IMG/VR virus record: IMGVR_UViG_3300028534_000003
Span: 33,090 to 97,089 of that record
Reading direction: 5' to 3' (one strand)
Origin: a virus
Lineage: Duplodnaviria > Heunggongvirae > Uroviricota > Caudoviricetes
DNA: 64,000 nt
Positions 1 through 60,448 of the stretch are shown one piece after another. The notes beneath the pieces are model-generated. The model saw only the letters and a program-made list of their open reading frames with translations. It was not told the DNA's origin and ran no database searches. Position 1 is the stretch's first letter; each line of letters begins with the position of its first letter. The translations under genes and the position numbers were made by a program.

Positions 1-1
1 T

Positions 2-10250: not shown

Positions 10251-10441
10251 TCAGGCATAGAATCAGTGTCAACTTTAGTGTCTGTAGAGTCAGATGCCCA
10301 AATACTAGTAGGTGATTTACCAGACTCAAATTGTTTAGCCGCTAATTGCTTAGCTTCATCAGGTGAACTAGCTTCAACTTCATACGTTGCTAAATCTACT
10401 GAATATACAAGTATCTCTACTCGTACTTCATACTTTTTCAT
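10226..10441 (-). CDS. Hypothetical protein
   Basis: 71-aa ORF overlapping its neighbours' start and stop. Confidence 0.35.
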   Translation of the reverse strand: MKKYEVRVEILVYSVDLATYEVEASSPDEAKQLAAKQFESGKSPTSIWASDSTDTKVDTDSMPDWIVEGIT

Positions 10442-11565
10442 GTTAAATCCTTTGCTATTTCATCCCAGTCAGATTGAGTCATGTTCGTATCAGTAATTCC
10501 AAGTTTATAGTTGGCTGATGTTTTCTCTTTCTGAGCTGTTTGGATGTTAGATGGTTTACTGTACTTAGATGCCCATAGACACGGGTTAAATGTATCATGC
10601 GTAATTGGCTCAAGACCAACTGACAGCATAACACTACGGATGTTATGGTCAGCATACTGCTTCATAACTTGGCTATTGAGTCCAAGTAGCTGTGCACCAT
10701 CCTCCCATAGATAATCAATCCAATCATAATCGGCTTGTAGTGTTGATTTGTATAGGTTTACTGCACGCTGTTCTACTGCTGCAACTGCCGGAGCCCATTG
10801 TGGGTTATTACGGTGATGGTTCAGTAGGTTTACAGTCATGCCATAATGACCTATTTCATCGATGTTAATACGAGCTATTGCATCAGCAGTTACAGACATC
10901 ATACCATTCTCTTTGAATCCAAATGAGGTTAGGAATGATGATTTGAATAGTACTGCTTCAAGGATGTTAAGTGCGTATAGTGACATGATGATTGATTTCT
11001 GGTGCTCAAATAAGTCATACGATGGATGATTACATGAGCGCATGCTATTGTGGACAACTGTCTCCTCAAACACTGCTAAGATTGATTTAGCTCTGTTAAT
11101 AATGTTATCATTAATCATGATATCATCAAAGATTTCTATAGCATTAGTTGGCATTGCTTTCAATATCTCAGCGTATGTTAATGAGTGAATGTTGTTCTCA
11201 AAGAATGCATGTGAGTACCACCAGCTCTCGCACTGAGGATTGGTAGTGACTGGGATGAATACTTCCGCTACTGTTCTAGCTGCTAGAGAGTCAAGTGTTG
11301 TCTGAAATTTCAAGTTCTTCAGGAACAAGTCACGAAGAATTGGAGACATAGTTTGATAGTCTTTAGCGTCTTTAGAGTACGGAAAGTCATCAGCGAACCA
11401 CATTAGTCCAAGTGCATTAGCTGTCATAGCTGATATGTTCGACTGGATTGATAGATCAAGCCGAGAGATATTACGACCAGAACCAAGAAATAATGGTTCC
11501 TGCGTAAAGTCGATTGGGGTTAATTCAAATAGTTGATTCATACTGAACACCCCCCACCAGCACAT
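10438..11565 (-). CDS. nrdB: Ribonucleotide reductase small (beta) subunit
   Basis: 375 aa with E..H iron-ligand-like motifs (DEIGHYG) and a ferritin-like helix pattern. It overlaps the start of the large-subunit gene. Confidence 0.55.
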   Translation of the reverse strand: MCWWGVFSMNQLFELTPIDFTQEPLFLGSGRNISRLDLSIQSNISAMTANALGLMWFADDFPYSKDAKDYQTMSPILRDLFLKNLKFQTTLDSLAARTVAEVFIPVTTNPQCESWWYSHAFFENNIHSLTYAEILKAMPTNAIEIFDDIMINDNIINRAKSILAVFEETVVHNSMRSCNHPSYDLFEHQKSIIMSLYALNILEAVLFKSSFLTSFGFKENGMMSVTADAIARINIDEIGHYGMTVNLLNHHRNNPQWAPAVAAVEQRAVNLYKSTLQADYDWIDYLWEDGAQLLGLNSQVMKQYADHNIRSVMLSVGLEPITHDTFNPCLWASKYSKPSNIQTAQKEKTSANYKLGITDTNMTQSDWDEIAKDLT

Positions 11566-22782: not shown

Positions 22783-23604
22783 ATGGAAGAAATATGGGTA
22801 CCAATTAAAGGTAGAGAAGAGTACTATGAAGTATCAAACCTAGGTAGAGTTAGGACATTATTTGGTAGAGTAAACAAATTAAATGAACCAAAAATAATGA
22901 TAGGTAGAGCATATACTGCTAGTCAAACTAAATATAATCAAGTTAAGTTAAGTAATGGTGGAAAACCAGAGTACTCCTTAGTACATCGATTAGTAGCTGA
23001 AGCTTTCATACCAAATCCAGAAAATAAACCATTTGTTAATCATATAGATAATAATGGATTAAATAATAATCATACTAATTTAGAATGGTGCACACAGTCA
23101 GAAAACCTAAAGCATGCTCAAAAGCAAGGTAGGTTGTTTGAAGCCCAATCTAAAGGCGGTAAAGCTCAACGAGATTTAGTAAGAACTAACGCTAAAGAAA
23201 TAGCTAGTAATCTGGTTGGCACACAGTATTATAAATGGACTGTTACTAATTATTTAGGGATAAAGCACCATAACAGAGAATACATAGAATGTACATGTGA
23301 GTGTGGTGCTAAAGTTGATATGTATTATATAACTATTATTAACGGTAAAGCTAGTCATAGTTGTAAGCAATGCGCTAAAACAGATGCTAAGGATAAATAC
23401 ATCAAAGAAATACTTAATGATATAAAAGATACTTCAGTAAATAATTGGGTATTTACAGGCAATGCTGTAGGCTATAATAAAAATTTAACAACTACAAAAC
23501 AATTAAAGTTAGAGGCTGTATGTAGTTGTTGTGGTAATGTTGACAGTCTTCCGTATGCCAAATTACCTAAAGTAAAACAATGTTTAAATTGCAAAGTACG
23601 ATAA
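22783..23604 (+). CDS. Free-standing HNH homing endonuclease (NUMOD4 + HNH_3 type)
   Basis: N-terminal WVPIKGREEYYEVSNLGRVRT (NUMOD4), then VHRLVAEAFIPNPENKPFVNHIDNNGLNNNHTNLEW (HNH_3). It is the lone + strand gene inside the minus-strand block. Confidence 0.7.
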   Translation: MEEIWVPIKGREEYYEVSNLGRVRTLFGRVNKLNEPKIMIGRAYTASQTKYNQVKLSNGGKPEYSLVHRLVAEAFIPNPENKPFVNHIDNNGLNNNHTNLEWCTQSENLKHAQKQGRLFEAQSKGGKAQRDLVRTNAKEIASNLVGTQYYKWTVTNYLGIKHHNREYIECTCECGAKVDMYYITIINGKASHSCKQCAKTDAKDKYIKEILNDIKDTSVNNWVFTGNAVGYNKNLTTTKQLKLEAVCSCCGNVDSLPYAKLPKVKQCLNCKVR

Positions 23605-24436: not shown

Positions 24437-24871
24437 TTAGTGTGTTTCAGACCAATTAAGGCCTATAGAATAGTCAGCTTCAATTGGAATATTCATATTA
24501 AATTGCTCAGTTACTAGTGAACAACCATTTACAATGTGCCGTCCAAGTGTACCAGCTAAGTCAGGTTTTACAGCACACTGATACTCATCATGTACAAATA
24601 CCATTTGATACCAATCAATACCTTCAGTAAGAGTTGGAGCTGCTAGATTGTGGAAGTTAATTGCCCATTGCTTAGCTATTATTCCGGCTGATCCCTGTAG
24701 TAGTAAGTTAAGGGCTGAGTGAGGCGATTTAGAGATTAATTCACGCCCATCAATAGCTGTAACTGTCCCTTTTGTTTTAGATTGAGTTGAACAATCAGCT
24801 ATTAATTCGTTAATACCATCCATACGAGCTAAGAAGTTATCAGCTACTTGCTTACCATAGATGGTTTCCAT
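24437..24871 (-). CDS. DNA polymerase (family A), 3' exon / C-terminal segment
   Basis: The translation begins (M)ETIYGKQ, which completes motif B (FG..YG). It contains LLQGSAGIIAKQW and motif C VFVHDEYQ. Confidence 0.7.
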   Translation of the reverse strand: METIYGKQVADNFLARMDGINELIADCSTQSKTKGTVTAIDGRELISKSPHSALNLLLQGSAGIIAKQWAINFHNLAAPTLTEGIDWYQMVFVHDEYQCAVKPDLAGTLGRHIVNGCSLVTEQFNMNIPIEADYSIGLNWSETH

Positions 24872-26221
24872 AATTAGACGCTCAGTTGGTTTAACGAATT
24901 CATCCTTACGAAGTGGGAATAAGCCAGCTTCGTTAAGTCTACGATTGATTGATTTAACTGCAATGTCGTAATCCTGTTGTGTAAATTCTAATGTTGTTAT
25001 TGAATTAGATGCCTCATACCCGTATGATGACGATCCAGTTGTACTTGTTGTTGTGTTAGTCCATACTATTATTGAGCCATCACTTAAAACATGGCCTCGT
25101 ATTGTATGGCCTTGCCCATATAAATCATTGTCTTCAGTAATGGTCGCAACACCATTACCCGTTCTCTTATGAACTGCTATATATTTCTATACAGATGAGA
25201 CTATATCATCACCCTCAGCATTATCTGTTAGGGGCAAACCGCTTCCATCACCATTAGCTTGTGATGTACTCCCTTCCGGGATAGTCGTTACACTTTCTCT
25301 ATTTAAAAATTTATCATTATATACACGCTTTACAGCGTATGGTACTCGTTTAATTATGGCTTTAGCCACAGCTTTTGTTATACCATACTTGTCTACTATA
25401 TTATGTACTTTATAATCATTATCATAGTAATCTATTAAAATACTTAGTATAGTATCATCAGGTACTGAATACTTACGTGATTTTCTTGTAATATGCTCAT
25501 CACTATTACTAAATGAATAGTGAGGTTTATTTAGGTAGTCAATAGCTTTTTGTAGTGTCTCTACAGAATCTTTTAATTGACCTAAGGCTGTGTTACATGT
25601 ATGACAAAGTAATCCTCTAACATCCCCTGAAGTATGACAATGGTCAATTACTAGTGGCATTGTTAGAGATTTAGCAGAGTTTGTCATATATCCTGTATAT
25701 CCACATATACTACATTTACCATCTTGTTCAATATACATATCTATATAGTCATCTAGTGACATATTATAATTACGTTGAAGCCAAGCATTAGCTAGGCCTT
25801 TACTAGCGCATTTATCTGAACAATAGTGTTCAGATGGTGCTTTTGGTGTAAATGTATTATTACATATTCTACATGCCTTATCTTTAAAGTACCCTTGTGG
25901 ATACTTAGAAGCAGAGGCTGTTTGATCTTTCTTAATTCTTAAATGCTTACCTGTACTAGGTAAAGGTACTTCATGTCTTTCCATAATATTATTCCTTAAT
26001 AGTTTTATGGAGTGTAACATGTAATTTATTAAATAGAGCTTAGCTCGGGATTGTCTTTAACTTAATAATAAGATGTCCCCCGAATTCAATTTGTTTACTT
26101 ATACACTATTTCTAGTGTAACCGGTCATTTATACATTAATACACTTAGTACACTTACTACTATCATTTGTCTATTCTCATCATAGTAATTGTATTAGTAT
26201 ATTGGAACAATGTAATGTTCA
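24869..26221 (-). mobile_element. Putative group I intron interrupting the DNA polymerase gene, carrying a homing endonuclease ORF
   Basis: The polymerase reading frame stops (TGA) straight after FFFG and resumes with ETIYG 1.35 kb downstream. The upstream exon ends in U and the insert ends in G. The insert has GC-richer structured flanks around an HNH ORF. Confidence 0.5.
25187..26020 (-). CDS. Intron-encoded HNH endonuclease of the Endonuclease VII (T4 gp49-like) type
   Basis: LVIDHCHTSGDVRGLLCHTCNTALG signature plus Zn-finger-like CRICN..C..C at the N-terminus. Confidence 0.65.
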   Translation of the reverse strand: MLHSIKLLRNNIMERHEVPLPSTGKHLRIKKDQTASASKYPQGYFKDKACRICNNTFTPKAPSEHYCSDKCASKGLANAWLQRNYNMSLDDYIDMYIEQDGKCSICGYTGYMTNSAKSLTMPLVIDHCHTSGDVRGLLCHTCNTALGQLKDSVETLQKAIDYLNKPHYSFSNSDEHITRKSRKYSVPDDTILSILIDYYDNDYKVHNIVDKYGITKAVAKAIIKRVPYAVKRVYNDKFLNRESVTTIPEGSTSQANGDGSGLPLTDNAEGDDIVSSV

Positions 26222-27721
26222 ACCGAAAAAGAATTTTTTACTCAAAGCTCTGGCTGCTTTCATTTCTGGTGTGGCTGTATGCTCATCCCAATCACAATCA
26301 TTTTTAGTCCAGAATCCAGCTACTTTTGCATGATACCAATGCATATCTTTAGATAATACAGCTTCAGCATACTTACCATTGTCATATGGGTATAAGTAGT
26401 GAGCTAATACACGTATTTCAATATTTTTAAGATCTGCTCCAAGTAATACAAAATCAGGTGGTGCAGTGAATAATGCCCTATACTTAGGGTCAGCATCAAT
26501 TTGGGCAAGATTAGGCTTTGTATGAGTTGCACGATGTGTTATTGCTCCTATTGTGTCACACTTGCCATGGATTGAATGCGTAATTGGGTTAAATCTAGCT
26601 ATCCAACTATTATCAGTTGTTGATAAGGATGATAGGGATTTCTTTACTTTCATAAGCTTAATAAGATCCTCACCATAGGATCCAAGACGCTTGAGGTCAT
26701 CTCTATCAACCTTAACATTACCTTTAGCTGTATACGTGTTGAACTCAAAATCATATAATGCTTTAAGCCATAGTTTAATTTGATTATCAGTGCCAGTAAA
26801 TTTAGTGAGTTTAATATTCTGGAATTCACCATTTTTCTCAACAAAGATTAGTCTGTGAGGTACTGAGAACCACTGGTACTTAGACTTTGCTGGTAGTTTC
26901 AGTTTGCCAGATTTAAATCGTTTTAATGGTCTAGTATATTGATGAACTGGATCCCACTTGATAAATGATGGATCAGGTATATACTGCCTGCGTCGGATTA
27001 GTTTGTTGGTTTTCTGTGGCTTCCCATCAGGCAAGAATCGAGGTTTGAATGTTTTAGATAATTTGAATTCAAGCTTCTGTCGTTCAAATAATAATGATGT
27101 ATTAAGTTTACGAGCTGCTTCTATGTCGAAATAGAATCCATAACGCTCCTGATCACCTATGATAGCTGCTATTGAATTCTCAAGTTCAATTACATTAGTT
27201 GCTGGAAAGCTAGGCATCGATTCAAGCTTGGTTAGTAATGCATAGGTTACTTCAACATCCTGCTTACAATAGTCAACCATTTCAGTAGTTAACTTAGACC
27301 AGTCATCGTATGAGCCCTTGTAAAGGCCAAGACGACGTCCAAATGCATCCAATGAGTATGAACCATACAATGCAGATGGAAAGTCTTCTATACCCATATC
27401 CATGCCAATAAGGTGCTCTTTAGGAAACATAATCTTAGCAAGTAACATAGTGTCGAGATGACTAGTGTTAAAGTTAAGATTGAAATAGGTTGATAAGTAT
27501 GGGATGTCGAATTTCATACCATTGTGGTGAACTAATTGGTCACAGTTAGATATGGTTCGAATGAATGCTTTTAGGCTACCATCAGAGTTAGGTAACCAAT
27601 GCGAGGTGAAGCACTGAGTTGGTTGTGGTTCACCATCGATCTCAAGCTTACATCCGATACAATGGATAATGCCATTGATATCAAATCCGTTGGTTTCAAT
27701 GTCAATTATTGCTCTCGTCAT
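26219..27721 (-). CDS. DNA polymerase (family A), 5' exon: 3'-5' exonuclease plus N-terminal polymerase domain
   Basis: Exo I (IIDIETNG), polymerase motif A region, and the translation ends ...RALSKKFFFG (the first half of motif B) immediately before the stop. Confidence 0.75.
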   Translation of the reverse strand: MTRAIIDIETNGFDINGIIHCIGCKLEIDGEPQPTQCFTSHWLPNSDGSLKAFIRTISNCDQLVHHNGMKFDIPYLSTYFNLNFNTSHLDTMLLAKIMFPKEHLIGMDMGIEDFPSALYGSYSLDAFGRRLGLYKGSYDDWSKLTTEMVDYCKQDVEVTYALLTKLESMPSFPATNVIELENSIAAIIGDQERYGFYFDIEAARKLNTSLLFERQKLEFKLSKTFKPRFLPDGKPQKTNKLIRRRQYIPDPSFIKWDPVHQYTRPLKRFKSGKLKLPAKSKYQWFSVPHRLIFVEKNGEFQNIKLTKFTGTDNQIKLWLKALYDFEFNTYTAKGNVKVDRDDLKRLGSYGEDLIKLMKVKKSLSSLSTTDNSWIARFNPITHSIHGKCDTIGAITHRATHTKPNLAQIDADPKYRALFTAPPDFVLLGADLKNIEIRVLAHYLYPYDNGKYAEAVLSKDMHWYHAKVAGFWTKNDCDWDEHTATPEMKAARALSKKFFFG

Positions 27722-33895: not shown

Positions 33896-34639
33896 TTATG
33901 ATTCAGCCACACAATCTTCAAATAAGAATTTATGATCGTCTGGCAATGCATCAAATATAGCTTGTGCTAGGTCTCTGATTTCCCATAATGCTGCTTTAGA
34001 TGATCGTAATGATAGAAAGTTCTGTAATGATCTGGCATTGATAGTCCAAACTAGAGATGTACGATAGGCCTCAGGCATACAGTACTTAGCTAGGTCATTA
34101 GAGCAATTGTTATTAAGTATGCTTCTCAAATTTTCAAGAGCTTCAACACTAGCTGAGTCAACATCATCATTGCCAGTAAGTACAATATATTTACAAGCAC
34201 GATCTATAGCATATTGTTCTGTAAATGGTGTTATGAATGTATCTTCATCAGTAAGTTCGGCTAATGTGTAGCGACTAGACTTTACTGAGAATGAGCTAAT
34301 TCTATGTCGAACTAATTCTTGCAAGCAAGCTCTACTAATTCCATCAATATCGAAATTGTATGATACATGTTCAATAGTTGAGGCGTGTTTGTTCTTGTTG
34401 GCTATACGCTCTATTCGTGCTACATTGCAACCTGGTATTTTAATAGGGCTACCAAACTGAGCATTACAATTGTCACATAAATAATAGTCGTCAGGTTGAG
34501 ACTTAAACTCAAAAGATTCACTTCCACAAGATGGACAAACACCCTCATCATTAGTATCTGGTGTAGGTTTATCCCAACATTTCCCTATAGCTTTATCTGC
34601 TATCCAAAGTGGTGTATGATTTAAAAGTGTTACTGTCAT
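33896..34639 (-). CDS. thyX: FAD-dependent thymidylate synthase ThyX with an inserted Zn-ribbon
   Basis: N-terminus LLNHTP..IADKAIGKCW (ThyX start) and RHRISSFSVKSSRY (ThyX RHR...S..S.RY motif). A CPSCGS...CDNC insertion lies between them. Confidence 0.6.
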   Translation of the reverse strand: MTVTLLNHTPLWIADKAIGKCWDKPTPDTNDEGVCPSCGSESFEFKSQPDDYYLCDNCNAQFGSPIKIPGCNVARIERIANKNKHASTIEHVSYNFDIDGISRACLQELVRHRISSFSVKSSRYTLAELTDEDTFITPFTEQYAIDRACKYIVLTGNDDVDSASVEALENLRSILNNNCSNDLAKYCMPEAYRTSLVWTINARSLQNFLSLRSSKAALWEIRDLAQAIFDALPDDHKFLFEDCVAES

Positions 34640-36449: not shown

Positions 36450-37349
36450 TTATTGTTTAGCGGATGTGTTTAATAATACTGGCATACTACCATTCATTAC
36501 CGATTTAGGTAATTGTCCATCCCATTTATTTGCTTCTGCTAACTTAACCTCAAGAGCTTTTTCCTGTAGTTCTAATTTACGTAATGTGATAAGTTCAGGA
36601 GTAATACCCTTAGCAGTCATAGCGTTGTAGTCTCTAATTCTCTTAGCTTCAAGCATACGAATATCATAGTCAGCTTCGGCTAGTTTTTTCTCACCTGCTT
36701 TTTTAGTTAATGCAATTTGTACATTAGCTTGTTCCTGTTCAATTTCCATTCGTCTTTTCTTAGCTGCTTCGATTGCATTAGTTACTATGTCTGGATATTT
36801 AATCTCTCCTATAGTAACATCGGAGATATCGATTGGTAATCCTTGTAACTTAGGTGCTAATGCTTGATACAATTCCTCAGTGATACGAGCATAGTTAGTG
36901 TTAACTTCATCTACGTTATATTTAGACATTACAGCTCTAGCAGTGTTAAGAATTACCATCTTACCATATACGTAATACACTTCTTGAGTAGTAATAATGT
37001 TATCATCCAACTTCATATCGTTGAATATAGCGTTCTGTCTTTTTCTATCGGATGTAACTCTACCTCTGAATACTACTGAGAACCTAAGAGTTAATTTATC
37101 TCTCAGTAAGACCTTTACAGGCTCTACAAACTTTTGTGTAGTGGTTTCAATTTGGATCATTCGTTCATGCATTGATGTTCTGGTAAAAGGACCATTGTCA
37201 ATATTTACGATGCCTGGGGGATATACCTCAGGTTGGAATCCGGTAGGCCCTAATACCTTACCTACGTGTCCTTGATCTACTTGAACATTACATCCGGTAA
37301 ATACAATTGTTGCTGTAATTGCAGCTATAATACTTAATATACGTTTCAT
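36450..37349 (-). CDS. SPFH/band-7 (prohibitin/HflKC-like) domain lipoprotein
   Basis: Lipobox (LSIIAAITATIVFTGC), then an SPFH-like core and a coiled-coil tail (EQEQANVQIALTKKAGEKKLAEADYDIRMLEAKR). Confidence 0.5.
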   Translation of the reverse strand: MKRILSIIAAITATIVFTGCNVQVDQGHVGKVLGPTGFQPEVYPPGIVNIDNGPFTRTSMHERMIQIETTTQKFVEPVKVLLRDKLTLRFSVVFRGRVTSDRKRQNAIFNDMKLDDNIITTQEVYYVYGKMVILNTARAVMSKYNVDEVNTNYARITEELYQALAPKLQGLPIDISDVTIGEIKYPDIVTNAIEAAKKRRMEIEQEQANVQIALTKKAGEKKLAEADYDIRMLEAKRIRDYNAMTAKGITPELITLRKLELQEKALEVKLAEANKWDGQLPKSVMNGSMPVLLNTSAKQ

Positions 37350-37663
37350 TAGTTTCCTTTTAATAAATTACCAGATAACTTAGCGTTATCGGTAAATGTG
37401 TTGTCTACCTGTTTAGGTGGTAATATTGTATGGCGTTCCTCAATTACTTTATCCATTTGTCTCATAGTTGGTGCAGTAGTTGGTTCCATTCTAATTGGAA
37501 TCATCCATTGTACAGTAATGAGAATAAGCGAAATTGTAGTCCACGTATTCCATACGACTTTTTTAGTTACAGATCGTCTCCAAGCTAAGTACAGAGCTAG
37601 AAAAGTAATCCCCATTGCGGTTAATTTAATTAACCAAAAATATGAAAATGATAGTTCAATCAT
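37349..37663 (-). CDS. Membrane protein
   Basis: 104-aa ORF with hydrophobic helices, coupled to the SPFH gene. Confidence 0.4.
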   Translation of the reverse strand: MIELSFSYFWLIKLTAMGITFLALYLAWRRSVTKKVVWNTWTTISLILITVQWMIPIRMEPTTAPTMRQMDKVIEERHTILPPKQVDNTFTDNAKLSGNLLKGN

Positions 37664-37675
37664 TGGTATCCTTTA

Positions 37676-37921
37676 TTAGTGTTTATTCCAGCATTGCATA
37701 ACTGGTGCTTTATATTTAGACTCAGTAAAGATAATTACACATTGCTGTGCTGGTTTACTATTAGGTACAGTGAACACATATGATCTTACATTAAGACCAG
37801 CAGTATCAAGTGTATAACGAGCATCAGGTTTGACTTCTTTATCATTCCATGTAGATATAGTTGTAAACATACCAGCATTAGCTGATATGATAAGTGTTAA
37901 TGTTAGTAGTAATGTTTTCAT
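37676..37921 (-). CDS. Small secreted protein (signal peptide)
   Basis: 81-aa ORF with an N-terminal signal peptide MKTLLLTLTLIISANA. Confidence 0.4.
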   Translation of the reverse strand: MKTLLLTLTLIISANAGMFTTISTWNDKEVKPDARYTLDTAGLNVRSYVFTVPNSKPAQQCVIIFTESKYKAPVMQCWNKH

Positions 37922-39316
37922 TTAATTTCCTTTGTTTCTTATTTCAGTTAAATTAGTTTCTATTAATAGCTTACCATTATGAAATACAGGCTTAAGAGCT
38001 TCCTCATATCCTTCAGGCAATTCGTTATACTGTTGAGTATATAACTCATACTTTCCATCTTTAACGATTGTAGTTACTCTACCTCGTTTAGATTTTTTAC
38101 CAGGATCTGTAATTGGGTCTTTGAAGATGTCAATATTCATAGTATGTAACTCTTCAGGTGTGCAATCAATATCAGATTGTACAGTAATTTGGCTACACTT
38201 AATAGCAAACTTATTGGTGTCTCTAGTGATATTCTGTGCAAGATCACCGCCACTACCGAAGATAAAGTTCTCTGCCGCGTAGCCAAGAGCTGTTACATGT
38301 TCAAGAATAGCTTCAATCTGTTCTGGAGTAATACCATCACCCCACAGTAGTCCATATTGTTTGAATGTAATTGGACGAGTATCTCTGTCTGTTTCACAGT
38401 TAGCGTACATTATCTCCAATATGCGTTCAAGCACTTCAATTGGATCACCACTATCAGGCCTGATTACAAGTTTCTGGTGTGGCCTGCTATCAAGTAATTG
38501 CCTAATACGTCCAGATGGATTAGTTACCATATCAGTGAATGCATAGACATCGTATGAGTCAGCAACAAATGACATGATTGGTGCATCAGGATTCTTTTGT
38601 AGTTGATCCCATACGAATTGCTCCTCACCATCCCTGCCGTACGATGTAGTAGTAGAGTGCTCAGATGCCCATACAGAAAATGAGTCAGCTGAAGTTGAGT
38701 TATAGTAGAGAGCTGGTAATAGTAATGAATTAAAGTTATCAGTTCCCATGAATTGAGTTGAATGTGCAAATCCAGCTAGAGAGGCTGATTCAACTGAGGT
38801 ACAGCCACGGTCAGAGAAGTTGTGTAGTGCGAAGTTAGCCCAATCAGGTGGCCCATAGTTGAGTAAGGTTTGCTTGATGTAGTACGACTTAGTAGCTATA
38901 GTAATTGGATACCACAACTTAAGTAATAAAGTTTCAAGATAACCTGGCAGCCAAGGTACTTCAGGGTCAGTTGATTCTATTACAAGTAATGGTAGTCCAG
39001 TAGGGATTAAAGATCCTTCAGGTACTGCTTTGATCGATACTGGTAGATAGCCAAGTTCGACTATGTAGTCCCATCCTGCTTTGTTAAATGGTTCACCGTG
39101 TTCAGCAGCTAGTTTAGCAGCCATAATTACATCAGTTTTAGTTGGTACTTTAAGTAAATACTTTTTAATGTAATATTGCAGTCCAACGAACACTGTAGCT
39201 GGGTACTGTCCACCACGAGATTCAAGATAAGAATACATAGATACCATATTATCAGGGTATTGAGAGTACTGGCCAAGTTTATATGAGTCAGTTAGTGTTA
39301 CTATCGAGTTAGTCAT
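37922..39316 (-). CDS. nadV: Nicotinamide phosphoribosyltransferase (NAMPT/NadV)
   Basis: N-terminal TDSYKLGQYSQYP, 464 aa, typical NAMPT family length and motifs. Confidence 0.75.
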   Translation of the reverse strand: MTNSIVTLTDSYKLGQYSQYPDNMVSMYSYLESRGGQYPATVFVGLQYYIKKYLLKVPTKTDVIMAAKLAAEHGEPFNKAGWDYIVELGYLPVSIKAVPEGSLIPTGLPLLVIESTDPEVPWLPGYLETLLLKLWYPITIATKSYYIKQTLLNYGPPDWANFALHNFSDRGCTSVESASLAGFAHSTQFMGTDNFNSLLLPALYYNSTSADSFSVWASEHSTTTSYGRDGEEQFVWDQLQKNPDAPIMSFVADSYDVYAFTDMVTNPSGRIRQLLDSRPHQKLVIRPDSGDPIEVLERILEIMYANCETDRDTRPITFKQYGLLWGDGITPEQIEAILEHVTALGYAAENFIFGSGGDLAQNITRDTNKFAIKCSQITVQSDIDCTPEELHTMNIDIFKDPITDPGKKSKRGRVTTIVKDGKYELYTQQYNELPEGYEEALKPVFHNGKLLIETNLTEIRNKGN

Positions 39317-39870
39317 TATTGTCCTTTGTTAAGTTGATACCATTGTAATAGGTATCGAGTTGACGCATCAGTTAGTGGATTAGCTAGTACTAAATCGATA
39401 TTATTAATATCTAAATAGACTATTTCAATAGACTCAGTATCAGTTAATTGTTGTCCACAATCCTGATCAGAATGCACTTCTACATAAAATGGATAACAAG
39501 TTGATCCAGTTAATCCTGCAGATCCAATATATGGTGGTAATGCAGTAAAATCTTCAAGTTCGGTACGATAGCCAAGTTCCTCATATACTTCCTGTGCTGC
39601 TATTGATAATGCCTGTAAGTGTGGAGGTTTGTCATGAAAGTTATCGATGATTCCAGCACAGCACTCAATAGTGAATGCGTCAACAGGAGGCCTATACTGC
39701 TTAACTAATAGTAAACAGTTATGGTCTACGTGGTAAACTAATACATGTACTGTGTTATGTGCTTTAACACGTTCCCATTGTAACTGTTTATCATTATGTG
39801 TATATGAGATTAGTTCAGTGTGAATAAATGATGGATCAATTAATGGCTCACGTTTTGTTATTGTTGGCAT
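39316..39870 (-). CDS. Nudix hydrolase (ADP-ribose pyrophosphatase-like)
   Basis: Degenerate Nudix box ...AAQEVYEELGY. It is coupled to the NadV and NMNAT genes. Confidence 0.5.
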   Translation of the reverse strand: MPTITKREPLIDPSFIHTELISYTHNDKQLQWERVKAHNTVHVLVYHVDHNCLLLVKQYRPPVDAFTIECCAGIIDNFHDKPPHLQALSIAAQEVYEELGYRTELEDFTALPPYIGSAGLTGSTCYPFYVEVHSDQDCGQQLTDTESIEIVYLDINNIDLVLANPLTDASTRYLLQWYQLNKGQ

Positions 39871-40546
39871 GCTGTTCCTTCAGTGAATTAATAACTTGAC
39901 AGGTTCTATAACAATGCTGCATAGTACCATGCCTAAGTGTTAAGTTATACGTTTTTGTATTATCAATAGCTTCTAATGTGTACACTATATTATTAAGTGC
40001 ATAGGTGTTACCTACAGCTATTCCATAGTAAGCATTCAATACAGAATAATACTTATTAAGTACTATAGGATAGACATCATCATGTAAATATTGGTTATAT
40101 TTAATCGGATTAGAACGGATATCAGTAGCACATATTGGTATTGATGAAATTGGTAATTGCTTAGTTGATATGTTATTAAGTTCAAATAATTTACTGTATG
40201 ATTGTGAGATATAGTGGATATTGTTATAAGTAAAATCACATCTATCTTCTGGTTTGTCATGTAAGTAGATTGTACATTTTGTAGGTAATAACGATTTAAG
40301 ATGGTCAAACCAATCATCCCAGCTATCATAGTCTGGTAAAAACTTAATGTTGGTTATACCAGTAGCTAATGTTATCATGTTAGCTCGTTCTGTGGCTGTG
40401 AACGGGTTTTTATGCGAAAGAGGTACATTGGTTGACCCAATAATAATAAGTGGTTCTAGACCATCTGCAATGATTGTATCAATGATTGATTGGTGGCCTA
40501 AATGAAATGGCTGAAATCGTCCGATTACTACTCCGTAGTGTGTCAT
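39848..40546 (-). CDS. Nicotinamide-nucleotide adenylyltransferase (NadM/NadR-type cytidylyltransferase)
   Basis: GVVIGRFQPFHLGH (HxGH motif) at the N-terminus. Confidence 0.65.
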   Translation of the reverse strand: MTHYGVVIGRFQPFHLGHQSIIDTIIADGLEPLIIIGSTNVPLSHKNPFTATERANMITLATGITNIKFLPDYDSWDDWFDHLKSLLPTKCTIYLHDKPEDRCDFTYNNIHYISQSYSKLFELNNISTKQLPISSIPICATDIRSNPIKYNQYLHDDVYPIVLNKYYSVLNAYYGIAVGNTYALNNIVYTLEAIDNTKTYNLTLRHGTMQHCYRTCQVINSLKEQHANNNKT

Positions 40547-40555
40547 ATGTGTCCT

Positions 40556-40819
40556 TTATATATCCAATACTATTTGTGTATCATATTTACTAATAAACTC
40601 ACCATAATCCATAGATGTTAAATTAGATGGTATATTCTTATCCCAATTCCACATAAAGTCTGTATTGTATCCATCATCATAGGCTATAGTTGGATTATCT
40701 TCATTAATAATGTCATTACAGCCTGTAGCCGTACATTCTTTTCCTTCACAAATAGTTGCTATATTATGAAGTTGGTCCATAGATGTAATATTTGTTACTG
40801 CTAAGCCGCGAATAATCAT
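40556..40819 (-). CDS. LTLNI-family small paralog 1
   Basis: IRGLAVT...FMWNW...QIVLDI. Homologous to 42118..42411. Confidence 0.45.
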   Translation of the reverse strand: MIIRGLAVTNITSMDQLHNIATICEGKECTATGCNDIINEDNPTIAYDDGYNTDFMWNWDKNIPSNLTSMDYGEFISKYDTQIVLDI

Positions 40820-40831
40820 TGTAATCCTTAT

Positions 40832-41254
40832 TTAAATATGTAGTGTTAATTGATCATTTGACTTACTTAAGTATAAAGAGTTAAACTGATCCAATGTCAT
40901 TAGATGGTACGTTAGTCCTACACAGTTAGATATACTCCAATTAAACATAAACATATCATCTCCACCACAATCAAATATGTACCTTACATTATTTAATTCG
41001 CTTATATTAATGCCTTCACATCTATTAACAACTTTTTCATAGTCTTTAGCTGGTATCATATCATTATTTGATACAATAAATAGATTACGCAATATTTCAT
41101 CAGATTGTGGTGGAAGTTTATTATCAGTATTACGTGATAACAATAAATAATCATCATATATAGTTAATAAAGTATATCCCTGATTAATACGTTCACGTAG
41201 TCTGGCTGGCAATTTATGTGTAGGTACATTCTTATAGTTGAGTCTTAAGGACAT
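40832..41254 (-). CDS. LTLNI-family paralog 2 (longer, 140 aa)
   Basis: FMFNW...DQLTLHI C-terminal block. Confidence 0.4.
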   Translation of the reverse strand: MSLRLNYKNVPTHKLPARLRERINQGYTLLTIYDDYLLLSRNTDNKLPPQSDEILRNLFIVSNNDMIPAKDYEKVVNRCEGINISELNNVRYIFDCGGDDMFMFNWSISNCVGLTYHLMTLDQFNSLYLSKSNDQLTLHI

Positions 41255-41256
41255 AA

Positions 41257-42108
41257 TTAAGCTTTACGTGGCTTACACGGTACTACTAATTCATCAAGAA
41301 TTGACTCTACAGTTGATACTGCATCAAAATCATCCTGTAAATTGATACAGTTAGGTAATTGAACAGGTGTTCCATACCCATCAGCTATATCGTCACCATA
41401 CAAGTCTTCGAATATAGCAAAGCCAAATTTACGAAGTAAACGTACATTGATGAATGATGATAATGTTGAAATAGATTTAATATCTTGGTAAGAATGTACT
41501 GGAATTGTTATAAGTAGATTAGGTTTACCATCTCCTCTATTTACATTCCTTGCTGTAAATACAGCGTTTATCTTAATGTATATACGTTTTGACTCTAGTA
41601 ATTCTACAGTTGCAAGTATCTTAGCTAATTTATTCTGTACATCCTCATCATCAACAGTCCATGGGATTGATGAGTTAATATATAGTTCATAGAAATAATT
41701 CTTTCCAGCTGATTTGGGTACTATTGCACATTCAGGATTACCTGCTAAATACCTAGCTATATCAATTAGTTCACCAGATACAGAATACTCAAATCCACTA
41801 TAAATTGTATCAGAAATTAACTTACGCTTGAGTAGTGATTCCTTTACTTTATATTTAATAGTTTGGTAGTTATTATCAGATATAGTACTAACACCAGCTC
41901 TTAATTCTTGTAATGCATCAGCATAAGATATGTCACATTTTATATCATCTAACTGTGTAATAGCTGATACAGTGTTTTTGAAATGTTCGGTATTCCTGAA
42001 TGATAGCATAGTTGTTGATTCATTATCCAATACAGTTAACCATGATTGTGGGTGATAATCCGCTAGTGGCTCATCAGTAATAAATTGCTGTGTTGTTAAA
42101 TTTGCCAT
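41257..42108 (-). CDS. Hypothetical protein (283 aa)
   Basis: ORF embedded among the paralogs and the AAA ATPase. Confidence 0.4.
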   Translation of the reverse strand: MANLTTQQFITDEPLADYHPQSWLTVLDNESTTMLSFRNTEHFKNTVSAITQLDDIKCDISYADALQELRAGVSTISDNNYQTIKYKVKESLLKRKLISDTIYSGFEYSVSGELIDIARYLAGNPECAIVPKSAGKNYFYELYINSSIPWTVDDEDVQNKLAKILATVELLESKRIYIKINAVFTARNVNRGDGKPNLLITIPVHSYQDIKSISTLSSFINVRLLRKFGFAIFEDLYGDDIADGYGTPVQLPNCINLQDDFDAVSTVESILDELVVPCKPRKA

Positions 42109-42117
42109 TAATTTCCT

Positions 42118-42411
42118 TTAAATGTTTAATGTTAGTTTAGTAACATAGTGGCTATAAAAATCCTTATATGGTATGTAAATTAAGTCATTTTTACTAGCCC
42201 TACCCCAATTGTACATAAATGAAATACTAGACCCACTATCATAGACTATATCATTACAGTGTACAAAAACTTTAGCTCTAGTTCTTCTTATGTCCTCTAG
42301 AGGCTCATTATAACATATTGCTAGTATTTGGCATAATTCTTCTGCTGTATTTACACCAGTTACAGCTAAGCCTCGTATGAAACCATTATCATCACGTGTT
42401 GGTAAGTTCAT
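42118..42411 (-). CDS. LTLNI-family small paralog 3
   Basis: FIRGLAVT...FMYNW...YKDFYSHY..KLTLNI. Confidence 0.45.
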   Translation of the reverse strand: MNLPTRDDNGFIRGLAVTGVNTAEELCQILAICYNEPLEDIRRTRAKVFVHCNDIVYDSGSSISFMYNWGRASKNDLIYIPYKDFYSHYVTKLTLNI

Positions 42412-42419
42412 AATATTTC

Positions 42420-42641
42420 CTATATATTCAGTGTTAGTGATGGGTATAGTTCAAATTCTTCAACTGAAAAGTTATATACTGATGAAATATTTAGACGGAA
42501 TGGAAAGCTAGGTCTATCTTCAAATATTTGAGTTATAGTTGCTTTTTTACCAATATAGGCTATCTTATCTCTATTACCTGTTACTGATTTAGTTATTATC
42601 ACATTGTCACCAACTTTAAACTTATATGCTTCATTTCTCAT
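42420..42641 (-). CDS. LTLNI-family small paralog 4
   Basis: ...YNFSVEEFELYPSLTLNI. Confidence 0.4.
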   Translation of the reverse strand: MRNEAYKFKVGDNVIITKSVTGNRDKIAYIGKKATITQIFEDRPSFPFRLNISSVYNFSVEEFELYPSLTLNI

Positions 42642-42643: not shown

Positions 42644-43441
42644 TTATTCACCAGTATTTGTTAACTCAGCTTCATATAATATCCTATCTTTAAGTTCATC
42701 AAATGTAGTCATATCAGCTTGAGTTAATGCACGCTTACGTTTATCTTCTTCAATTTGTGCTAAATATGCAGTAAATGCCTGTTTAAGTTCATCAGATGTA
42801 TTATCAATTAATCTTAGTAATGGGTTATCATCAAGCCCTAACTCTAATAGCTTATCATATAATATTTCATCTCTCATAGTTAATGTTATTGATGAACCAT
42901 ATGATTTAAGAAAATCACGCAATATAGTTACATCGTCAATAGCTTTAGTACTAGCTATGTTCGACGCTAATGTTTGATCATAATTGATCTTGATAGTATA
43001 ATATCTGTTAAGTGTAGAGAAGTCTAGATTAGCTCTAGCTCCATACTGTACTGTTACAGGATTAGCTGTAGCGATTAGATGGAAATCAGGATGAACATCA
43101 ATAACACCATCAGGGAATGGTACAAATCCATTGTCAAGTGAGTTAAGGCATAGAATAGTGTTAGGATCCATAGCAGTTAACTCTTCTATTACAAATATAC
43201 CGCCAAATTCAACAGCTTTACGGAATAGTGTTGGTGAATAATTGCTATTAACATCATAGAAGCCCAAGAATGCTGCTTGAGATGTTTGATATGTACCAGT
43301 AATTACATAGAATGGTATATTAAGATCATCAGCAATAGCCTTAGCTATAGTTGATTTACCAGTACCAGATTCACCAATTAGTAAAGGTGATAGTCCAGCT
43401 TTTACTGTGGCTAATACATAGTCATATTGAAAGTGTTTCAT
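42644..43441 (-). CDS. AAA+ ATPase of the AAA_5 (MoxR/CobS/McrB-like) type
   Basis: Walker A (GESGTGKST), Walker B (IFVIEELTAMD) and sensor-1-like LIATANP. Confidence 0.55.
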   Translation of the reverse strand: MKHFQYDYVLATVKAGLSPLLIGESGTGKSTIAKAIADDLNIPFYVITGTYQTSQAAFLGFYDVNSNYSPTLFRKAVEFGGIFVIEELTAMDPNTILCLNSLDNGFVPFPDGVIDVHPDFHLIATANPVTVQYGARANLDFSTLNRYYTIKINYDQTLASNIASTKAIDDVTILRDFLKSYGSSITLTMRDEILYDKLLELGLDDNPLLRLIDNTSDELKQAFTAYLAQIEEDKRKRALTQADMTTFDELKDRILYEAELTNTGE

Positions 43442-44091: not shown

Positions 44092-44346
44092 TTATATATT
44101 TAATGTTAATTGTTTTATAGGTAATCCGTCGCTATCAAGTCCGGCTTCAGTTAGCCAGCAATTATATTGTTTAATTCTAATGCAATCAGATACAGACATG
44201 TAACTAATAATTTTGTTTGAGTTAGAAGATGAATACTTTAATATTATTCCCTTTACGTCATTATTACCTAAAAGTAAAAAATTTACACAACTACTATTGA
44301 TTGCTCTTATATCATTATAAGTCATGCAATGAGTATATTTAATCAT
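44092..44346 (-). CDS. LTLNI-family small paralog 5
   Basis: ...YNCW...KQLTLNI. Confidence 0.4.
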   Translation of the reverse strand: MIKYTHCMTYNDIRAINSSCVNFLLLGNNDVKGIILKYSSSNSNKIISYMSVSDCIRIKQYNCWLTEAGLDSDGLPIKQLTLNI

Positions 44347-44401
44347 ACAATGTCCTTGTTAAATTAATAGAGTTTACTATAGTGTGAACTCTATAATGTA
44401 A

Positions 44402-59977: not shown

Positions 59978-60448
59978 TTGAAAGATAACATGGATAATGA
60001 AATACCATTAAACATATCACTCGGTAAGGATGAATCAATCCAAGTTAAACGAGTATATGATAACAAGCCACCATTCTCTATGGTCGGCACTAAGCAAACC
60101 AAGAAAGGATCAACAATGTTAAATAGTGAACATCACTTAGATATACTAGAAGTAATGGAAAATATATCACCAAATGCTATATACGTACTAAGACTACTAC
60201 GAGATAGTAGAGAGATTAGTGATTATGAAACACATAGCATAGCTCCAATGATCACTAGTAGACGTAAAGAACTGTCTAAAAGTGACCAACGTAGATGGGA
60301 TAAAGGATTAGCTGTACTAATAGCTAATAAGCTTATAGCTAGCTATATAGGTAAATATATGATTAATCCATTCCTGATTATACCAAACAACTTCGAGGAG
60401 CATGAAAAGCTATGGAACAAACTATCTGATGATATAGTTACTAGCTAG
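59978..60448 (+). CDS. Putative winged-helix transcriptional regulator
   Basis: 156 aa with AIYVLRLLRDSREISDYE, matching a MarR/wHTH recognition-helix pattern. It is divergent from the early gene block and has the operator repeats upstream. Confidence 0.35.
   Translation: MKDNMDNEIPLNISLGKDESIQVKRVYDNKPPFSMVGTKQTKKGSTMLNSEHHLDILEVMENISPNAIYVLRLLRDSREISDYETHSIAPMITSRRKELSKSDQRRWDKGLAVLIANKLIASYIGKYMINPFLIIPNNFEEHEKLWNKLSDDIVTS

What the first reader, a model, noticed from the sequence alone, without database searches (positions are those of the whole stretch)
37922..40546. Three-gene NAD+ salvage module (NadV/NAMPT, Nudix hydrolase, NMN adenylyltransferase)
Three consecutive coupled genes encode NAMPT (DSYK motif), a Nudix hydrolase and an HxGH-type NMN adenylyltransferase. 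This is the enzyme set needed to rebuild NAD+ from nicotinamide and ADP-ribose or PRPP-derived intermediates.

Phage-encoded NAD+ reconstitution pathways of this composition have recently been shown to counter NAD+-depleting defences such as Thoeris, DSR and SIR2-containing systems. In this phage the NMNAT and Nudix functions are separate genes rather than one bifunctional protein.

The module is followed directly by the LTLNI paralog family and sits next to secreted and membrane proteins, which suggests a host-manipulation island.
Basis: partly seen in the sequence, partly recalled or inferred. Interest (0 to 1): 0.55.

Follow-up and report, generated by a model that had tools for sequence, protein, structure and literature searches.

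The report
Phage NAD+ rebuilding operon, NARP2-type
An uncultivated ~97 kb phage carries three tightly coupled genes (NMN adenylyltransferase, an ADP-sugar-type Nudix hydrolase and nicotinamide phosphoribosyltransferase) that most likely rebuild NAD+ in the infected cell; this is a known phage strategy, here with an unusual, separately recruited Nudix enzyme.

Summary
Three minus-strand ORFs lie exactly at 37922-40546, each has an AAGGA-type ribosome-binding site, and their stops and starts overlap or abut.

- **NAMPT (464 aa):** secure. It scores 437.6 bits against an equivalog cutoff of 405. It groups with NMNAT-linked Nampt enzymes, not with the Adps-linked Namat enzymes of NARP1.
- **NMNAT (232 aa):** it has the HxGH and ISxTxxR motifs and matches archaeal/NadM enzymes, but scores below their family cutoffs. 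It carries a unique C-terminal extension of about 65 aa.
- **Nudix (184 aa):** it fails Pfam NUDIX and has a degenerate Nudix box. Its family profile matches human NUDT14 at 1.7e-45. A pLDDT 95.9 model superposes on NUDT14, NudK and NUDT5 (TM about 0.8). It is not related to the Nudix domain of KVP40 NatV beyond the superfamily.

Nudix lies just upstream of NAMPT in four unrelated metagenomic contigs as well as the window, with NMNAT nearby in three of those four. One of them also holds Acb2/Tad1 and Tad3 genes inside the module. Others add an NAD kinase.

Verdict: a NARP2-type NAD+ salvage operon with a non-orthologous ADP-sugar pyrophosphatase. The counter-defence role is plausible but untested. 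Interest is moderate to low.

The parts
39848..40546 (-). NMN adenylyltransferase, NadM/archaeal type, stand-alone (232 aa). The catalytic core is about residues 1-166.
   Evidence: PF01467 at 41.7 bits (cutoff 21). The best NCBIfam hits are all NMNAT families, e.g. NF002243 at 1.1e-16, but below cutoff. PDB archaeal NMNAT 1M8J at 4e-11. 33% identity to KVP40 NatV residues 1-139, E 9e-14. HxGH at residues 15-18 and ICATDIR at 138-144; H18 and R144 are invariant in alignment A4.
39851..40048 (-). C-terminal extension of the NMNAT, about 65 aa (residues ~167-232), with no counterpart in relatives.
   Evidence: Nine of the ten true relatives in alignment A4 end 10-20 residues after the conserved YL(H/D)xxVY segment; the tenth row is only the first 180 residues of bifunctional KVP40 NatV. 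No Pfam hit. No significant similarity to the LTLNI paralogs or to the L001 79-aa ORF. Function unknown.
39316..39870 (-). Nudix hydrolase of the NDP-sugar/ADP-ribose pyrophosphatase clade (NUDT14/NudK/NUDT5-like), 184 aa, with a non-canonical Nudix box.
   Evidence: No Pfam or PHROG hit for this member. TIGR00052 YffH/AdpP at 9.6e-12, below cutoff. Family profile against PDB: NUDT14 1.7e-45, NudK 3.5e-29, NUDT5 2e-15. AF2 model pLDDT 95.9. Foldseek: NUDT14 E 6.6e-16 with TMq 0.81, then NudK, Bdellovibrio NDP-sugar hydrolase with ADP-ribose, and NUDT5. E69, C71, A72, G73, D76, E94, E97 and E98 are invariant in 52 relatives.
37922..39316 (-). Nicotinamide phosphoribosyltransferase (NAMPT/NadV), 464 aa, of the PRPP-using Nampt clade.
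   Evidence: NF006629 at 437.6 bits (cutoff 405), PF04095 plus PF18127, phrog_448 at 2e-119. PDB bacterial NAMPT 7yqo at 1.3e-97 and human NAMPT at 1e-80, with the EHST, RPDSGDP, GDGI and FGSGG motifs aligned. A neighbour-joining tree places it with NMNAT-linked enzymes, apart from Adps-linked Namat.

Best explanation
The three genes form a phage NAD+ salvage and reconstitution operon of the NARP2 type.

**Proposed steps**
1. NAMPT condenses nicotinamide with PRPP to give NMN.
2. The stand-alone NadM-type NMNAT adenylylates NMN with ATP to give NAD+.
3. The Nudix gene sits between them and is translationally coupled to both. It is an ADP-sugar pyrophosphatase that most likely cleaves ADP-ribose, the other product of NAD+ cleavage, to AMP and ribose-5-phosphate. 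Host Prs can turn ribose-5-phosphate back into PRPP. This would close the cycle and remove ADP-ribose.

**Effect:** the operon keeps NAD+ available during infection. It would blunt NAD+-depleting defences (TIR/Thoeris, SIR2, DSR, SEFIR, RES). It would also supply the phage's own NAD(P)-hungry nucleotide metabolism.

**Shown here:** the identities of the three folds and families, conservation of the catalytic motifs, the gene coupling, and recurrence of the cassette in other phage contigs.

**Inferred:** the substrates of the NMNAT and the Nudix, the role of host Prs, and the biological role.
For: - **Families and motifs:**
- **Nampt versus Namat:** in a 12-sequence NJ tree the window enzyme sits with NMNAT-linked enzymes (Mx1, LucasX, L001, L003), together with RsoM2USA and a large Vibrio phage whose NMNAT status I did not check. 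It shares 36-61% identity with these. It is separate from Adps-linked enzymes (Team1, wV8, ICP1, SageFayge), at about 30% identity. tblastn with four Adps proteins finds nothing in the window at E below 1.
- **No other NAD genes:** Pfam scans of 50 window ORFs, tblastn with the relatives' NAD kinases and 8.5 kb beyond the window show no Prs/Adps, NadR, PnuC or NAD kinase.
- **Cassette conservation**:
  - L001: NMNAT, 79-aa ORF, Nudix, NAD kinase, two small ORFs, NAMPT.
  - L003: Nudix, NAMPT, 240-aa ORF, Acb2/Tad1, Tad3, NMNAT.
  - L014: Nudix, 44-aa ORF, NAMPT.
  - L017: NMNAT, Nudix.
  - L018: NMNAT, three ORFs, Nudix, NAMPT.
  - Nudix identities to the window protein are only 30-55%, so the linkage is maintained by selection.
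- **ADP-ribose link of the Nudix family:** a distant member (L020/L021) lies 1.8 kb from a WGR-PARP gene. Structural neighbours include ADP-ribose-bound enzymes.
- **Counter-defence context:** Acb2/Tad1 hairpin (77 bits) and Tad3 (135 bits) lie inside the L003 module.
- **Published function of NARP2:** bioRxiv 10.1101/2024.02.11.579819, section 9, and 10.64898/2026.01.28.702374.
Against: - No experiment exists for this phage.
- The NMNAT scores below every NMNAT-specific curated cutoff. It also has an unexplained C-terminal extension.
- The Nudix box deviates from GX5EX7REUXEEXGU: H replaces the first Glu, the spacer is 13 residues instead of 7, and Q replaces Arg.
- The residue aligned to the NudK residue altered in the D152A mutant is Ser.
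- The closest solved relatives are annotated for UDP-glucose (NUDT14) and GDP-mannose (NudK), so ADP-ribose is not the only candidate substrate.
- This window holds no recognised anti-defence gene next to the module.
- NAD kinase in related cassettes points to general NAD(P) supply.
- About 24 kb of the ~97 kb genome was not seen, so an Adps elsewhere is not formally excluded.
Confidence: 0.72

Rival explanations
1. The same enzymes act as an auxiliary metabolic module rather than a counter-defence device. The operon raises NAD+ (and, in relatives with NAD kinase, NADP+) to support the phage's own nucleotide and DNA metabolism in slow-growing or NAD-poor hosts.
For: NAD kinase-like genes sit inside or beside the cassette in L001, L002 and L017. 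The window encodes ThyX (33896-34639), class I RNR (10438-13760) and many replication genes. NARP2 makes excess NAD+ whether or not a defence is present. No anti-defence family hit lies next to the module in this window.
Against: This is not exclusive with counter-defence. L003 places Tad1/Acb2 and Tad3 inside the module. The published KVP40 pathway does rescue phages from Thoeris and DSR2.
Confidence: 0.4
2. The Nudix does not recycle ADP-ribose. It might hydrolyse NDP-sugars such as UDP-glucose or GDP-mannose to remodel host envelope precursors. It might trim NAD(H)/NMN overproduction to limit NARP2 toxicity. Or it might destroy ADP-ribose-derived immune signals (gcADPR, His-ADPR, N7-cADPR).
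For: The top sequence and structure matches are NUDT14 (UDP-glucose pyrophosphatase) and NudK (GDP-mannose). The KVP40 NARP2 operon was too toxic to clone in E. coli. The L003 neighbours target Thoeris and CBASS signalling.
Against: The gene is fixed between NMNAT and NAMPT, or directly upstream of NAMPT, in five independent contigs. That placement argues for a substrate within NAD metabolism. A distant member is linked to a PARP. Several structural neighbours bind ADP-ribose. From memory, unverified here: NUDT14 also cleaves ADP-ribose.
Confidence: 0.25
3. The NAMPT-like protein is a Namat, the NARP1 enzyme that uses ADPR-PP, and the module is a NARP1 variant.
For: Namat and Nampt are homologous, and both hit PF04095. 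The KVP40 Nampt can also use ADPR-PP weakly.
Against: The tree places it in the NMNAT-linked clade, and no Adps is detectable. It passes the NAMPT-type equivalog cutoff. It is closer to bacterial and human NAMPT (1e-97 and 1e-80) than to any Adps-linked phage enzyme. An NMNAT is co-transcribed.
Confidence: 0.04

Closest known systems
NARP2 of Vibrio phage KVP40 (NadV Nampt plus NatV Nmnat-Nudix)
   Same: It has a Nampt-clade phosphoribosyltransferase (the window enzyme is 35.9% identical to the Nampt of a large Vibrio phage, D483; KVP40's own NadV was not compared). Its NadM-type NMNAT core is 33% identical to NatV residues 1-139. It has no Adps. A Nudix activity is linked to the pathway.
   Different: NMNAT and Nudix are separate genes here. 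The Nudix is from another clade (NUDT14/NudK-like) and shows no similarity to the NatV Nudix domain beyond the Nudix helix. The NMNAT has an extra C-terminal tail of about 65 aa. The genes form one tightly coupled operon, whereas KVP40 natV has no nadV among the genes within 6 kb on either side.
Human NUDT14, E. coli NudK (YffH) and human NUDT5: NDP-sugar/ADP-ribose pyrophosphatases
   Same: Full-length profile match (1.7e-45, 3.5e-29 and 2e-15). Same fold, including the N-terminal beta-sheet domain (TM about 0.8). The ExCAGxxD and E-x2-EE motifs are shared. NUDT14 also lacks the canonical first Glu and Arg of the Nudix box (it reads ...GLSLEEVACKEAWEECGY).
   Different: Only 18-25% identity. 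There is a 6-residue longer insert before the Nudix helix. Gln replaces Lys/Arg. The gene is phage-encoded and embedded in an NAD salvage operon. The substrate is untested.
NARP1 (Adps plus Namat)
   Same: It rebuilds NAD+ and uses a NAMPT-family enzyme.
   Different: No Adps is present. The window enzyme lies outside the Adps-linked clade. An NMNAT is present.
NARP3 (PnuC plus NadR; PMC13464706)
   Same: It is a phage NAD+ restoring pathway that ends in NMN adenylylation.
   Different: The window has no PnuC transporter and no NadR kinase domain. The entry substrate is nicotinamide, not nicotinamide riboside.
Bacterial bifunctional NadM-Nudix (Synechocystis and Francisella; PDB 2qjo, 2qjt)
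   Same: The NMNAT N-terminal region matches (2.4e-8 and 6.7e-5). An NMNAT is paired functionally with a Nudix (named ADP-ribose pyrophosphatase in NCBIfam's NadM-Nudix models and in phage annotations).
   Different: The proteins are not fused, and the Nudix belongs to a different clade.

Membership tests
NARP2 (Osterman et al., bioRxiv 10.1101/2024.02.11.579819) | The NAMPT-family enzyme belongs to the Nampt clade, not the Adps-associated Namat clade. | tested here: met
   The NJ tree of 12 phage enzymes groups the window protein with NMNAT-linked enzymes. It shares 36-61% identity with that clade and about 30% with Adps-linked ones.
NARP2 (Osterman et al., bioRxiv 10.1101/2024.02.11.579819) | An Nmnat homologue is encoded in the same phage genome. 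| tested here: met
   The 232-aa ORF lies two genes upstream in the same operon.
NARP2 (Osterman et al., bioRxiv 10.1101/2024.02.11.579819) | No Adps (Prs-like ADPR-PP synthetase) in the genome. | tested here: inconclusive
   None is found in the 64 kb window by tblastn with four Adps proteins or by Pfam scans. None is found in 8.5 kb beyond the window. About 24 kb of the ~97 kb genome could not be read.
NARP2 (Osterman et al., bioRxiv 10.1101/2024.02.11.579819) | It raises NAD+ during infection and rescues phage from NAD+-depleting defence. | not testable with these tools
   This needs expression and infection assays.
NAMPT (NF006629; PF04095 plus PF18127) | The score exceeds the curated cutoffs over the full length. 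| tested here: met
   437.6 bits against 405, covering residues 2-462 of 464. PF04095 114.8 against 20.8. PF18127 73.7 against 25.
NAMPT (NF006629; PF04095 plus PF18127) | The catalytic and substrate motifs of solved NAMPTs are conserved: DSYK, the EHST histidine, GTD, RPDSGDP, GDGI and FGSGG. | tested here: met
   All are aligned and conserved against bacterial NAMPT 7yqo. The roles of these residues come from established NAMPT structural work (own knowledge).
NadM/archaeal-type NMN adenylyltransferase | The HxGH and ISxTxxR nucleotidyltransferase motifs. | tested here: met
   GRFQPFHLGH (residues 9-18) and ICATDIR (138-144). H18 and R144 are invariant in A4.
NadM/archaeal-type NMN adenylyltransferase | The score exceeds an NMNAT-specific curated cutoff. 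| tested here: not met
   NF002243 60.9 against 127. TIGR01527 53.9 against 181. TIGR01526 46 against 341. Only the superfamily model PF01467 passes. The NMNAT call rests on best-hit identity, motifs and operon context.
Nudix superfamily (PF00293) | A Pfam NUDIX hit above cutoff. | tested here: not met
   The window protein has no hit. 32 of 52 family members do hit, best 4.3e-11.
Nudix superfamily (PF00293) | The canonical Nudix box GX5EX7REUXEEXGU. | tested here: not met
   The sequence reads G73-x5-H79-x13-Q93-E94-V-Y-E97-E98-L-G100-Y. The three helix glutamates and the Gly are invariant or nearly so in 52 relatives. Arg and the first Glu are not.
Nudix superfamily (PF00293) | The Nudix alpha/beta/alpha fold. 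| tested here: met
   The AF2 model has pLDDT 95.9 and pTM 0.88. All top-50 Foldseek hits are Nudix NDP-sugar/ADPR hydrolases.
NUDT14/NudK/NUDT5 NDP-sugar and ADP-ribose pyrophosphatase clade | Full-length homology, including the N-terminal dimerisation sheet and the ExCAGxxD motif. | tested here: met
   The family profile aligns to NUDT14 residues 2-215 at 1.7e-45 and to NudK residues 4-185 at 3.5e-29. TMq is 0.80-0.83.
NUDT14/NudK/NUDT5 NDP-sugar and ADP-ribose pyrophosphatase clade | Hydrolysis of ADP-ribose or another NDP-sugar. | not testable with these tools
   An enzyme assay is needed.
NatV / NadM-Nudix bifunctional enzyme | NMNAT and Nudix domains are fused in one polypeptide, with a NadM-type Nudix domain. 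| tested here: not met
   There are two ORFs in different frames. BLASTP of the Nudix against NatV gives E 0.98. hhalign gives probability 9%.

The most novel reading that the evidence does not exclude
The NUDT14-like Nudix may be more than an ADP-ribose recycler. It could be a dedicated counter-defence enzyme that cleaves ADP-ribose-derived immune signals or non-canonical NAD+ breakdown products (gcADPR, His-ADPR, N7-cADPR, ADPR-1''-phosphate). One operon would then both silence Thoeris- or RES-type immunity and rebuild NAD+ from the fragments. It would define a third, previously undescribed phage Nudix clade tied to NAD conflict. A weaker variant: the 23-nt overlap and the odd NMNAT tail permit a +1 frameshift that fuses NMNAT to Nudix.
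Probability: 0.08. Interest if true: 0.7.

Novelty: new variant of a known kind. Interest (0 to 1): 0.36.

Why it matters
NAD+ depletion is one of the commonest bacterial anti-phage strategies, and phage NAD+ rebuilding pathways (NARP1, 2 and 3) are a recent discovery.

This locus shows that a lineage of uncultivated ~100 kb phages with T7-like replication and transcription genes carries a compact NMNAT-Nudix-NAMPT cassette. In it, the ADP-ribose-handling step is done by a Nudix recruited independently from the NUDT14/NudK clade.

- That Nudix family has no PHROG at E 0.001 or better. Among 50,697 phage records only seven match it, and weakly (E 7e-5 or worse).
- Convergent pairing of an ADP-sugar pyrophosphatase with NARP2 enzymes argues that ADP-ribose disposal or recycling is a selected part of the pathway. 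It would not then be an accident of the NatV fusion.
- The cassette gives a clean three-gene system to test this.
- Mixing with Tad1/Acb2, Tad3 and NAD kinase genes in relatives marks the region as a place to look for new NAD-conflict genes.

Tried and rejected
- **Megablast:** 37000-41500 against 50,697 phage records gave no match. The phage has no close sequenced relative.
- **PHROGs and Pfam on the Nudix:** no hit.
- **tblastn of the Nudix against phage records:** seven weak hits only.
- **First AF2 run, 4-sequence alignment:** pLDDT 56.8, unusable. It was replaced by a 52-sequence alignment.
- **Sigma-70 promoter and terminator scan of 35-45 kb:** counts at or below the shuffle expectation (49 against 57.9; 3 against 3.5). 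It is uninformative, and the phage has its own T7-like RNAP.
- **IMG/VR scan for Nudix relatives:** alignment A3 was too divergent. A2 gave 31 pattern matches, none confirmed.
- **Lee et al. 2017 (PMC5388814)** on the KVP40 NatV Nudix activity is not held. Statements about that domain's substrates are therefore not cited.
- **NMNAT C-terminal tail** against the LTLNI paralogs and the L001 79-aa ORF: no significant similarity. No Pfam hit.
- **Homologues in the window** of the relatives' NAD kinase, Tad1-like, Tad3, Fic and 240-aa genes: none found.
- **Namat/NARP1 reading:** rejected.
- **Mx1 gene annotated 'nicotinamide-nucleotide adenylyltransferase' (L013:5737-6288):** it aligned poorly and carries a P-loop. 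It was not used as an NMNAT reference.
- **Look-up of window ORF 8822-10006** to reach the other contig end: not on record.
Full report
**1. Observation**

One search lists three consecutive minus-strand ORFs whose limits equal the reported coordinates: 40546..39848 (232 aa), 39870..39316 (184 aa) and 39316..37922 (464 aa). I read the junctions directly.
- The first two ORFs overlap by 23 nt.
- The Nudix stop and the NAMPT start share a base (TAATG).
- The NAMPT stop is followed at once by the ATG of an 81-aa signal-peptide protein.
- Each start codon has an AAGGA/AGGAC motif 4-8 nt upstream.

The genes sit in a long, gap-free run of minus-strand genes. A sigma-70 promoter and terminator scan found nothing above chance. 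That scan says little, because the phage encodes its own T7-like RNA polymerase at 60422-62482.

**2. What the three proteins are**

*NAMPT (464 aa).* This assignment is unambiguous.
- It scores 437.6 bits on NF006629 (curated cutoff 405). It hits PF04095 and PF18127, and phrog_448 at 2e-119.
- It matches bacterial NAMPT 7yqo at 1.3e-97 and human NAMPT at 1e-80. The DSYK, EHST, RPDSGDP, GDGI and FGSGG motifs are aligned.
- NARP1's Namat is a homologue, so I built a small tree. It used four Adps-linked enzymes (Staphylococcus Team1, wV8, ICP1, SageFayge). It also used four NMNAT-linked enzymes (LucasX, Mx1 and metagenomic L001 and L003) and three whose NMNAT status I did not check (a large Vibrio phage D483, RsoM2USA and Klebsiella Roth26).
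- The window enzyme falls in the clade that holds all the NMNAT-linked enzymes and none of the Adps-linked ones. It shares 36-61% identity with that clade (34% with Roth26) and about 30% with the Adps-linked group.
- tblastn with four Adps proteins finds nothing in the window at E below 1.

*NMNAT (232 aa).*
- It hits PF01467 above cutoff. Every top NCBIfam hit is an NMNAT family (NadM, archaeal, NadR), but all fall below their cutoffs.
- It matches archaeal NMNAT structures at 4e-11. It is 33% identical to KVP40 NatV residues 1-139.
- GRFQPFHLGH and ICATDIR are the two signature motifs of this nucleotidyltransferase group. H18 and R144 are invariant among relatives.
- Relatives are 170-190 aa. 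The window protein continues for about 65 more residues, and this tail matches nothing.

- It has no Pfam or PHROG hit and only seven weak tblastn hits in phage records.
- Its Nudix box is non-canonical: G73-x5-H-x13-Q-E94-V-Y-E97-E98-L-G-Y.
- NCBIfam places it near YffH/AdpP at 9.6e-12, below cutoff.
- An exhaustive HMMER search found 260 relatives at E of 1e-10 or better. In a 52-member alignment, E69, C71, A72, G73, D76, E94, E97 and E98 are invariant. Of those 52 members, 32 hit PF00293.
- The family profile aligns full-length to human NUDT14 (1.7e-45), E. coli NudK (3.5e-29) and NUDT5 (2e-15).
- NUDT14 itself lacks the canonical first Glu and Arg, so the deviation is typical of this clade.
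- With the deep alignment, AlphaFold gives pLDDT 95.9. Foldseek returns only NDP-sugar/ADP-ribose Nudix enzymes, with TM about 0.8.
- E94 aligns with NudK E100, a residue that was mutated for the solved structures. E146 aligns with NudK E151. NudK D152 corresponds to S147 here and to Leu in NUDT14.
- The protein is unrelated to the Nudix domain of KVP40 NatV beyond the Nudix helix: BLASTP E 0.98 and hhalign probability 9%.

**3. Comparative context**

The window comes from a 97,103-bp metagenomic contig. A second assembly of 96,992 bp is circularly permuted relative to it, which suggests a complete genome.

The Nudix family recurs next to NAD genes in unrelated contigs:

| Contig | Gene order |
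|---|---|
| L001 | NMNAT, 79-aa ORF, Nudix (55% identical), NAD-kinase-like, two small ORFs, NAMPT (61%) |
| L003 | Fic, Nudix, NAMPT, 240-aa ORF, Acb2/Tad1-hairpin (77 bits), Tad3 (135 bits), NMNAT |
| L014 | Nudix, 44-aa ORF, NAMPT |
| L017 | NAD kinase, DUF3307, NMNAT, Nudix |
| L018 | NMNAT, three ORFs, Nudix, NAMPT |
| L002 | NAMPT remnant, NAD kinase, NMNAT |

A distant family member lies 1.8 kb from a WGR-PARP gene. The Nudix is thus linked to NAD/ADP-ribose genes across 30-55% sequence identity.

Pfam scans covered 50 window ORFs. tblastn with the relatives' NAD kinases found nothing in the window. The gene table for 8.5 kb beyond the window was also read. Together they show RNR, ThyX, ATP-dependent DNA ligase, HU, helicases, a split PolA, RNA ligase, lysozyme and terminase. 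They show no Adps/Prs, NadR, PnuC, NAD kinase, macro domain or known anti-defence family.

**4. Mechanism**

The most likely reactions are these.
1. Nicotinamide plus PRPP gives NMN (NAMPT).
2. NMN plus ATP gives NAD+ (NMNAT).
3. ADP-ribose gives AMP plus ribose-5-phosphate (Nudix). Host Prs then regenerates PRPP.

Steps 1 and 2 are the published NARP2 chemistry. Step 3 is inferred from the clade, the fixed gene position and the PARP link.

The biological role cannot be resolved by sequence. It could be counter-defence, general NAD(P) provisioning, or both.
- L003's Tad genes favour counter-defence.
- The NAD kinases and the phage's ThyX and RNR favour provisioning.

**5. Comparison and novelty**

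By the genomic definition of Osterman et al., this is a NARP2 system. An Adps is absent from all sequence I could read, but about 24 kb of the genome was not seen. It differs from the KVP40 archetype in three ways:
- a stand-alone NMNAT with an odd C-terminal tail;
- a tightly coupled three-gene operon;
- a non-orthologous Nudix from the NUDT14/NudK clade.

Iyer et al. 2022 (PMC9503650) describe phage Nudix domains as mostly T4 NudE-type or NadM-type. This clade is neither. I rate the locus as a new variant of a known kind. The enzymology is expected, so interest is moderate to low (0.36).

**6. Limits**

- About 24 kb of the genome is unseen.
- No biochemical data exist for this phage.
- The Lee et al. 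2017 paper on KVP40 NatV could not be read.
- NUDT14's ADP-ribose activity is recalled from memory and was not verified here.

Noticed in passing
window 40556-40819, 40832-41254, 42118-42411, 42420-42641, 44092-44358 (all minus strand): Five small ORFs end in an LTLNI-like pentapeptide (LTLNI, LTLHI, IVLDI). The 87-, 97- and 140-aa proteins are true paralogs (Smith-Waterman z = 21, 5.9 and 3.4 against shuffles) and share an F/M-x-NW motif. The 73-aa one shares only the tail, and the 88-aa ORF at 44092-44358 was not compared. They are interleaved with an AAA_5 ATPase (42644-43441) and a DUF7192 protein (41257-42108). They lie upstream of the NAD operon in the direction of transcription. No Pfam or PHROG hit for the three scanned (87, 97 and 140 aa).
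   Followed up: partly
window 39851-40048 (minus strand): The NMNAT has a C-terminal tail of about 65 aa that nine of the ten true relatives aligned lack (the tenth row is a truncated KVP40 NatV). It overlaps the Nudix start by 23 nt, and the Nudix frame is +1 relative to it. A frameshift fusion that mimics bifunctional NadM-Nudix is conceivable but untested.
   Followed up: partly
L003 4040-8561: In a related 62.8 kb contig the NAD genes are interleaved with an Acb2/Tad1-hairpin protein (77 bits), a Tad3 type I Thoeris inhibitor (135 bits), a Fic protein and an unknown 240-aa protein. This looks like an anti-Thoeris/CBASS island built around Nudix-NAMPT...NMNAT.
   Followed up: partly
L001 4336-4995; L002 7342-8004; L017 4-312: NAD-kinase-like genes (weak PF01513 hits; 43-50% identical to each other) sit inside or beside the NAD cassette in three related contigs. 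There is none in the window.
   Followed up: partly
L002 7089-7322: A fragment matches only the C-terminal 95 residues of NAMPT (43% identity, E 8e-13) just upstream of NAD kinase and NMNAT. It looks like a decayed NAMPT gene.
   Followed up: no
L020/L021 789-4405: A distant member of the Nudix family lies 1.8 kb from a WGR-PARP_reg-PARP gene and next to a HAD_SAK_2 protein, on contigs from environmental and crustacean metagenomes. This is another ADP-ribose link for the family.
   Followed up: no
window 74-5113 and 5107-8013 (plus strand): Two very large ORFs (1679 and 968 aa) have no Pfam hit. They lie on the opposite strand to nearly all other genes. GC skew (0.28-0.41) and AT skew (0.21-0.31) are strikingly high across 1-8000.
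   Followed up: no
window 24437-24871, 25187-26020, 26219-27721 (minus strand): The family A DNA polymerase is split into two ORFs. An ORF containing endonuclease VII lies between them, and an HNH/NUMOD4 endonuclease lies nearby (22783-23604, plus strand). The same split occurs in L002.
   Followed up: no
window 36450-37921 (minus strand); L022 6533-7186: Directly downstream of NAMPT are an 81-aa protein with a signal peptide, a 104-aa membrane protein and a Band_7/SPFH lipoprotein (lipobox FTGC; PF01145 1.7e-17; phrog_200). Outside the window the genome also encodes a ClpP/NfeD-like protease, the usual partner of SPFH proteins. L003 also has a Band_7 gene near its NAD module.
   Followed up: no
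whole window; L022: Two assemblies of this genome (97,103 and 96,992 bp) are circularly permuted relative to each other, consistent with a complete ~97 kb phage genome. It combines a T7-like single-subunit RNAP (60422-62482) with RNR, ThyX, RNA ligase, HU and a MazG-like PRA-PH protein (8139-8612). It has no close relative among 50,697 phage records.
   Followed up: partly
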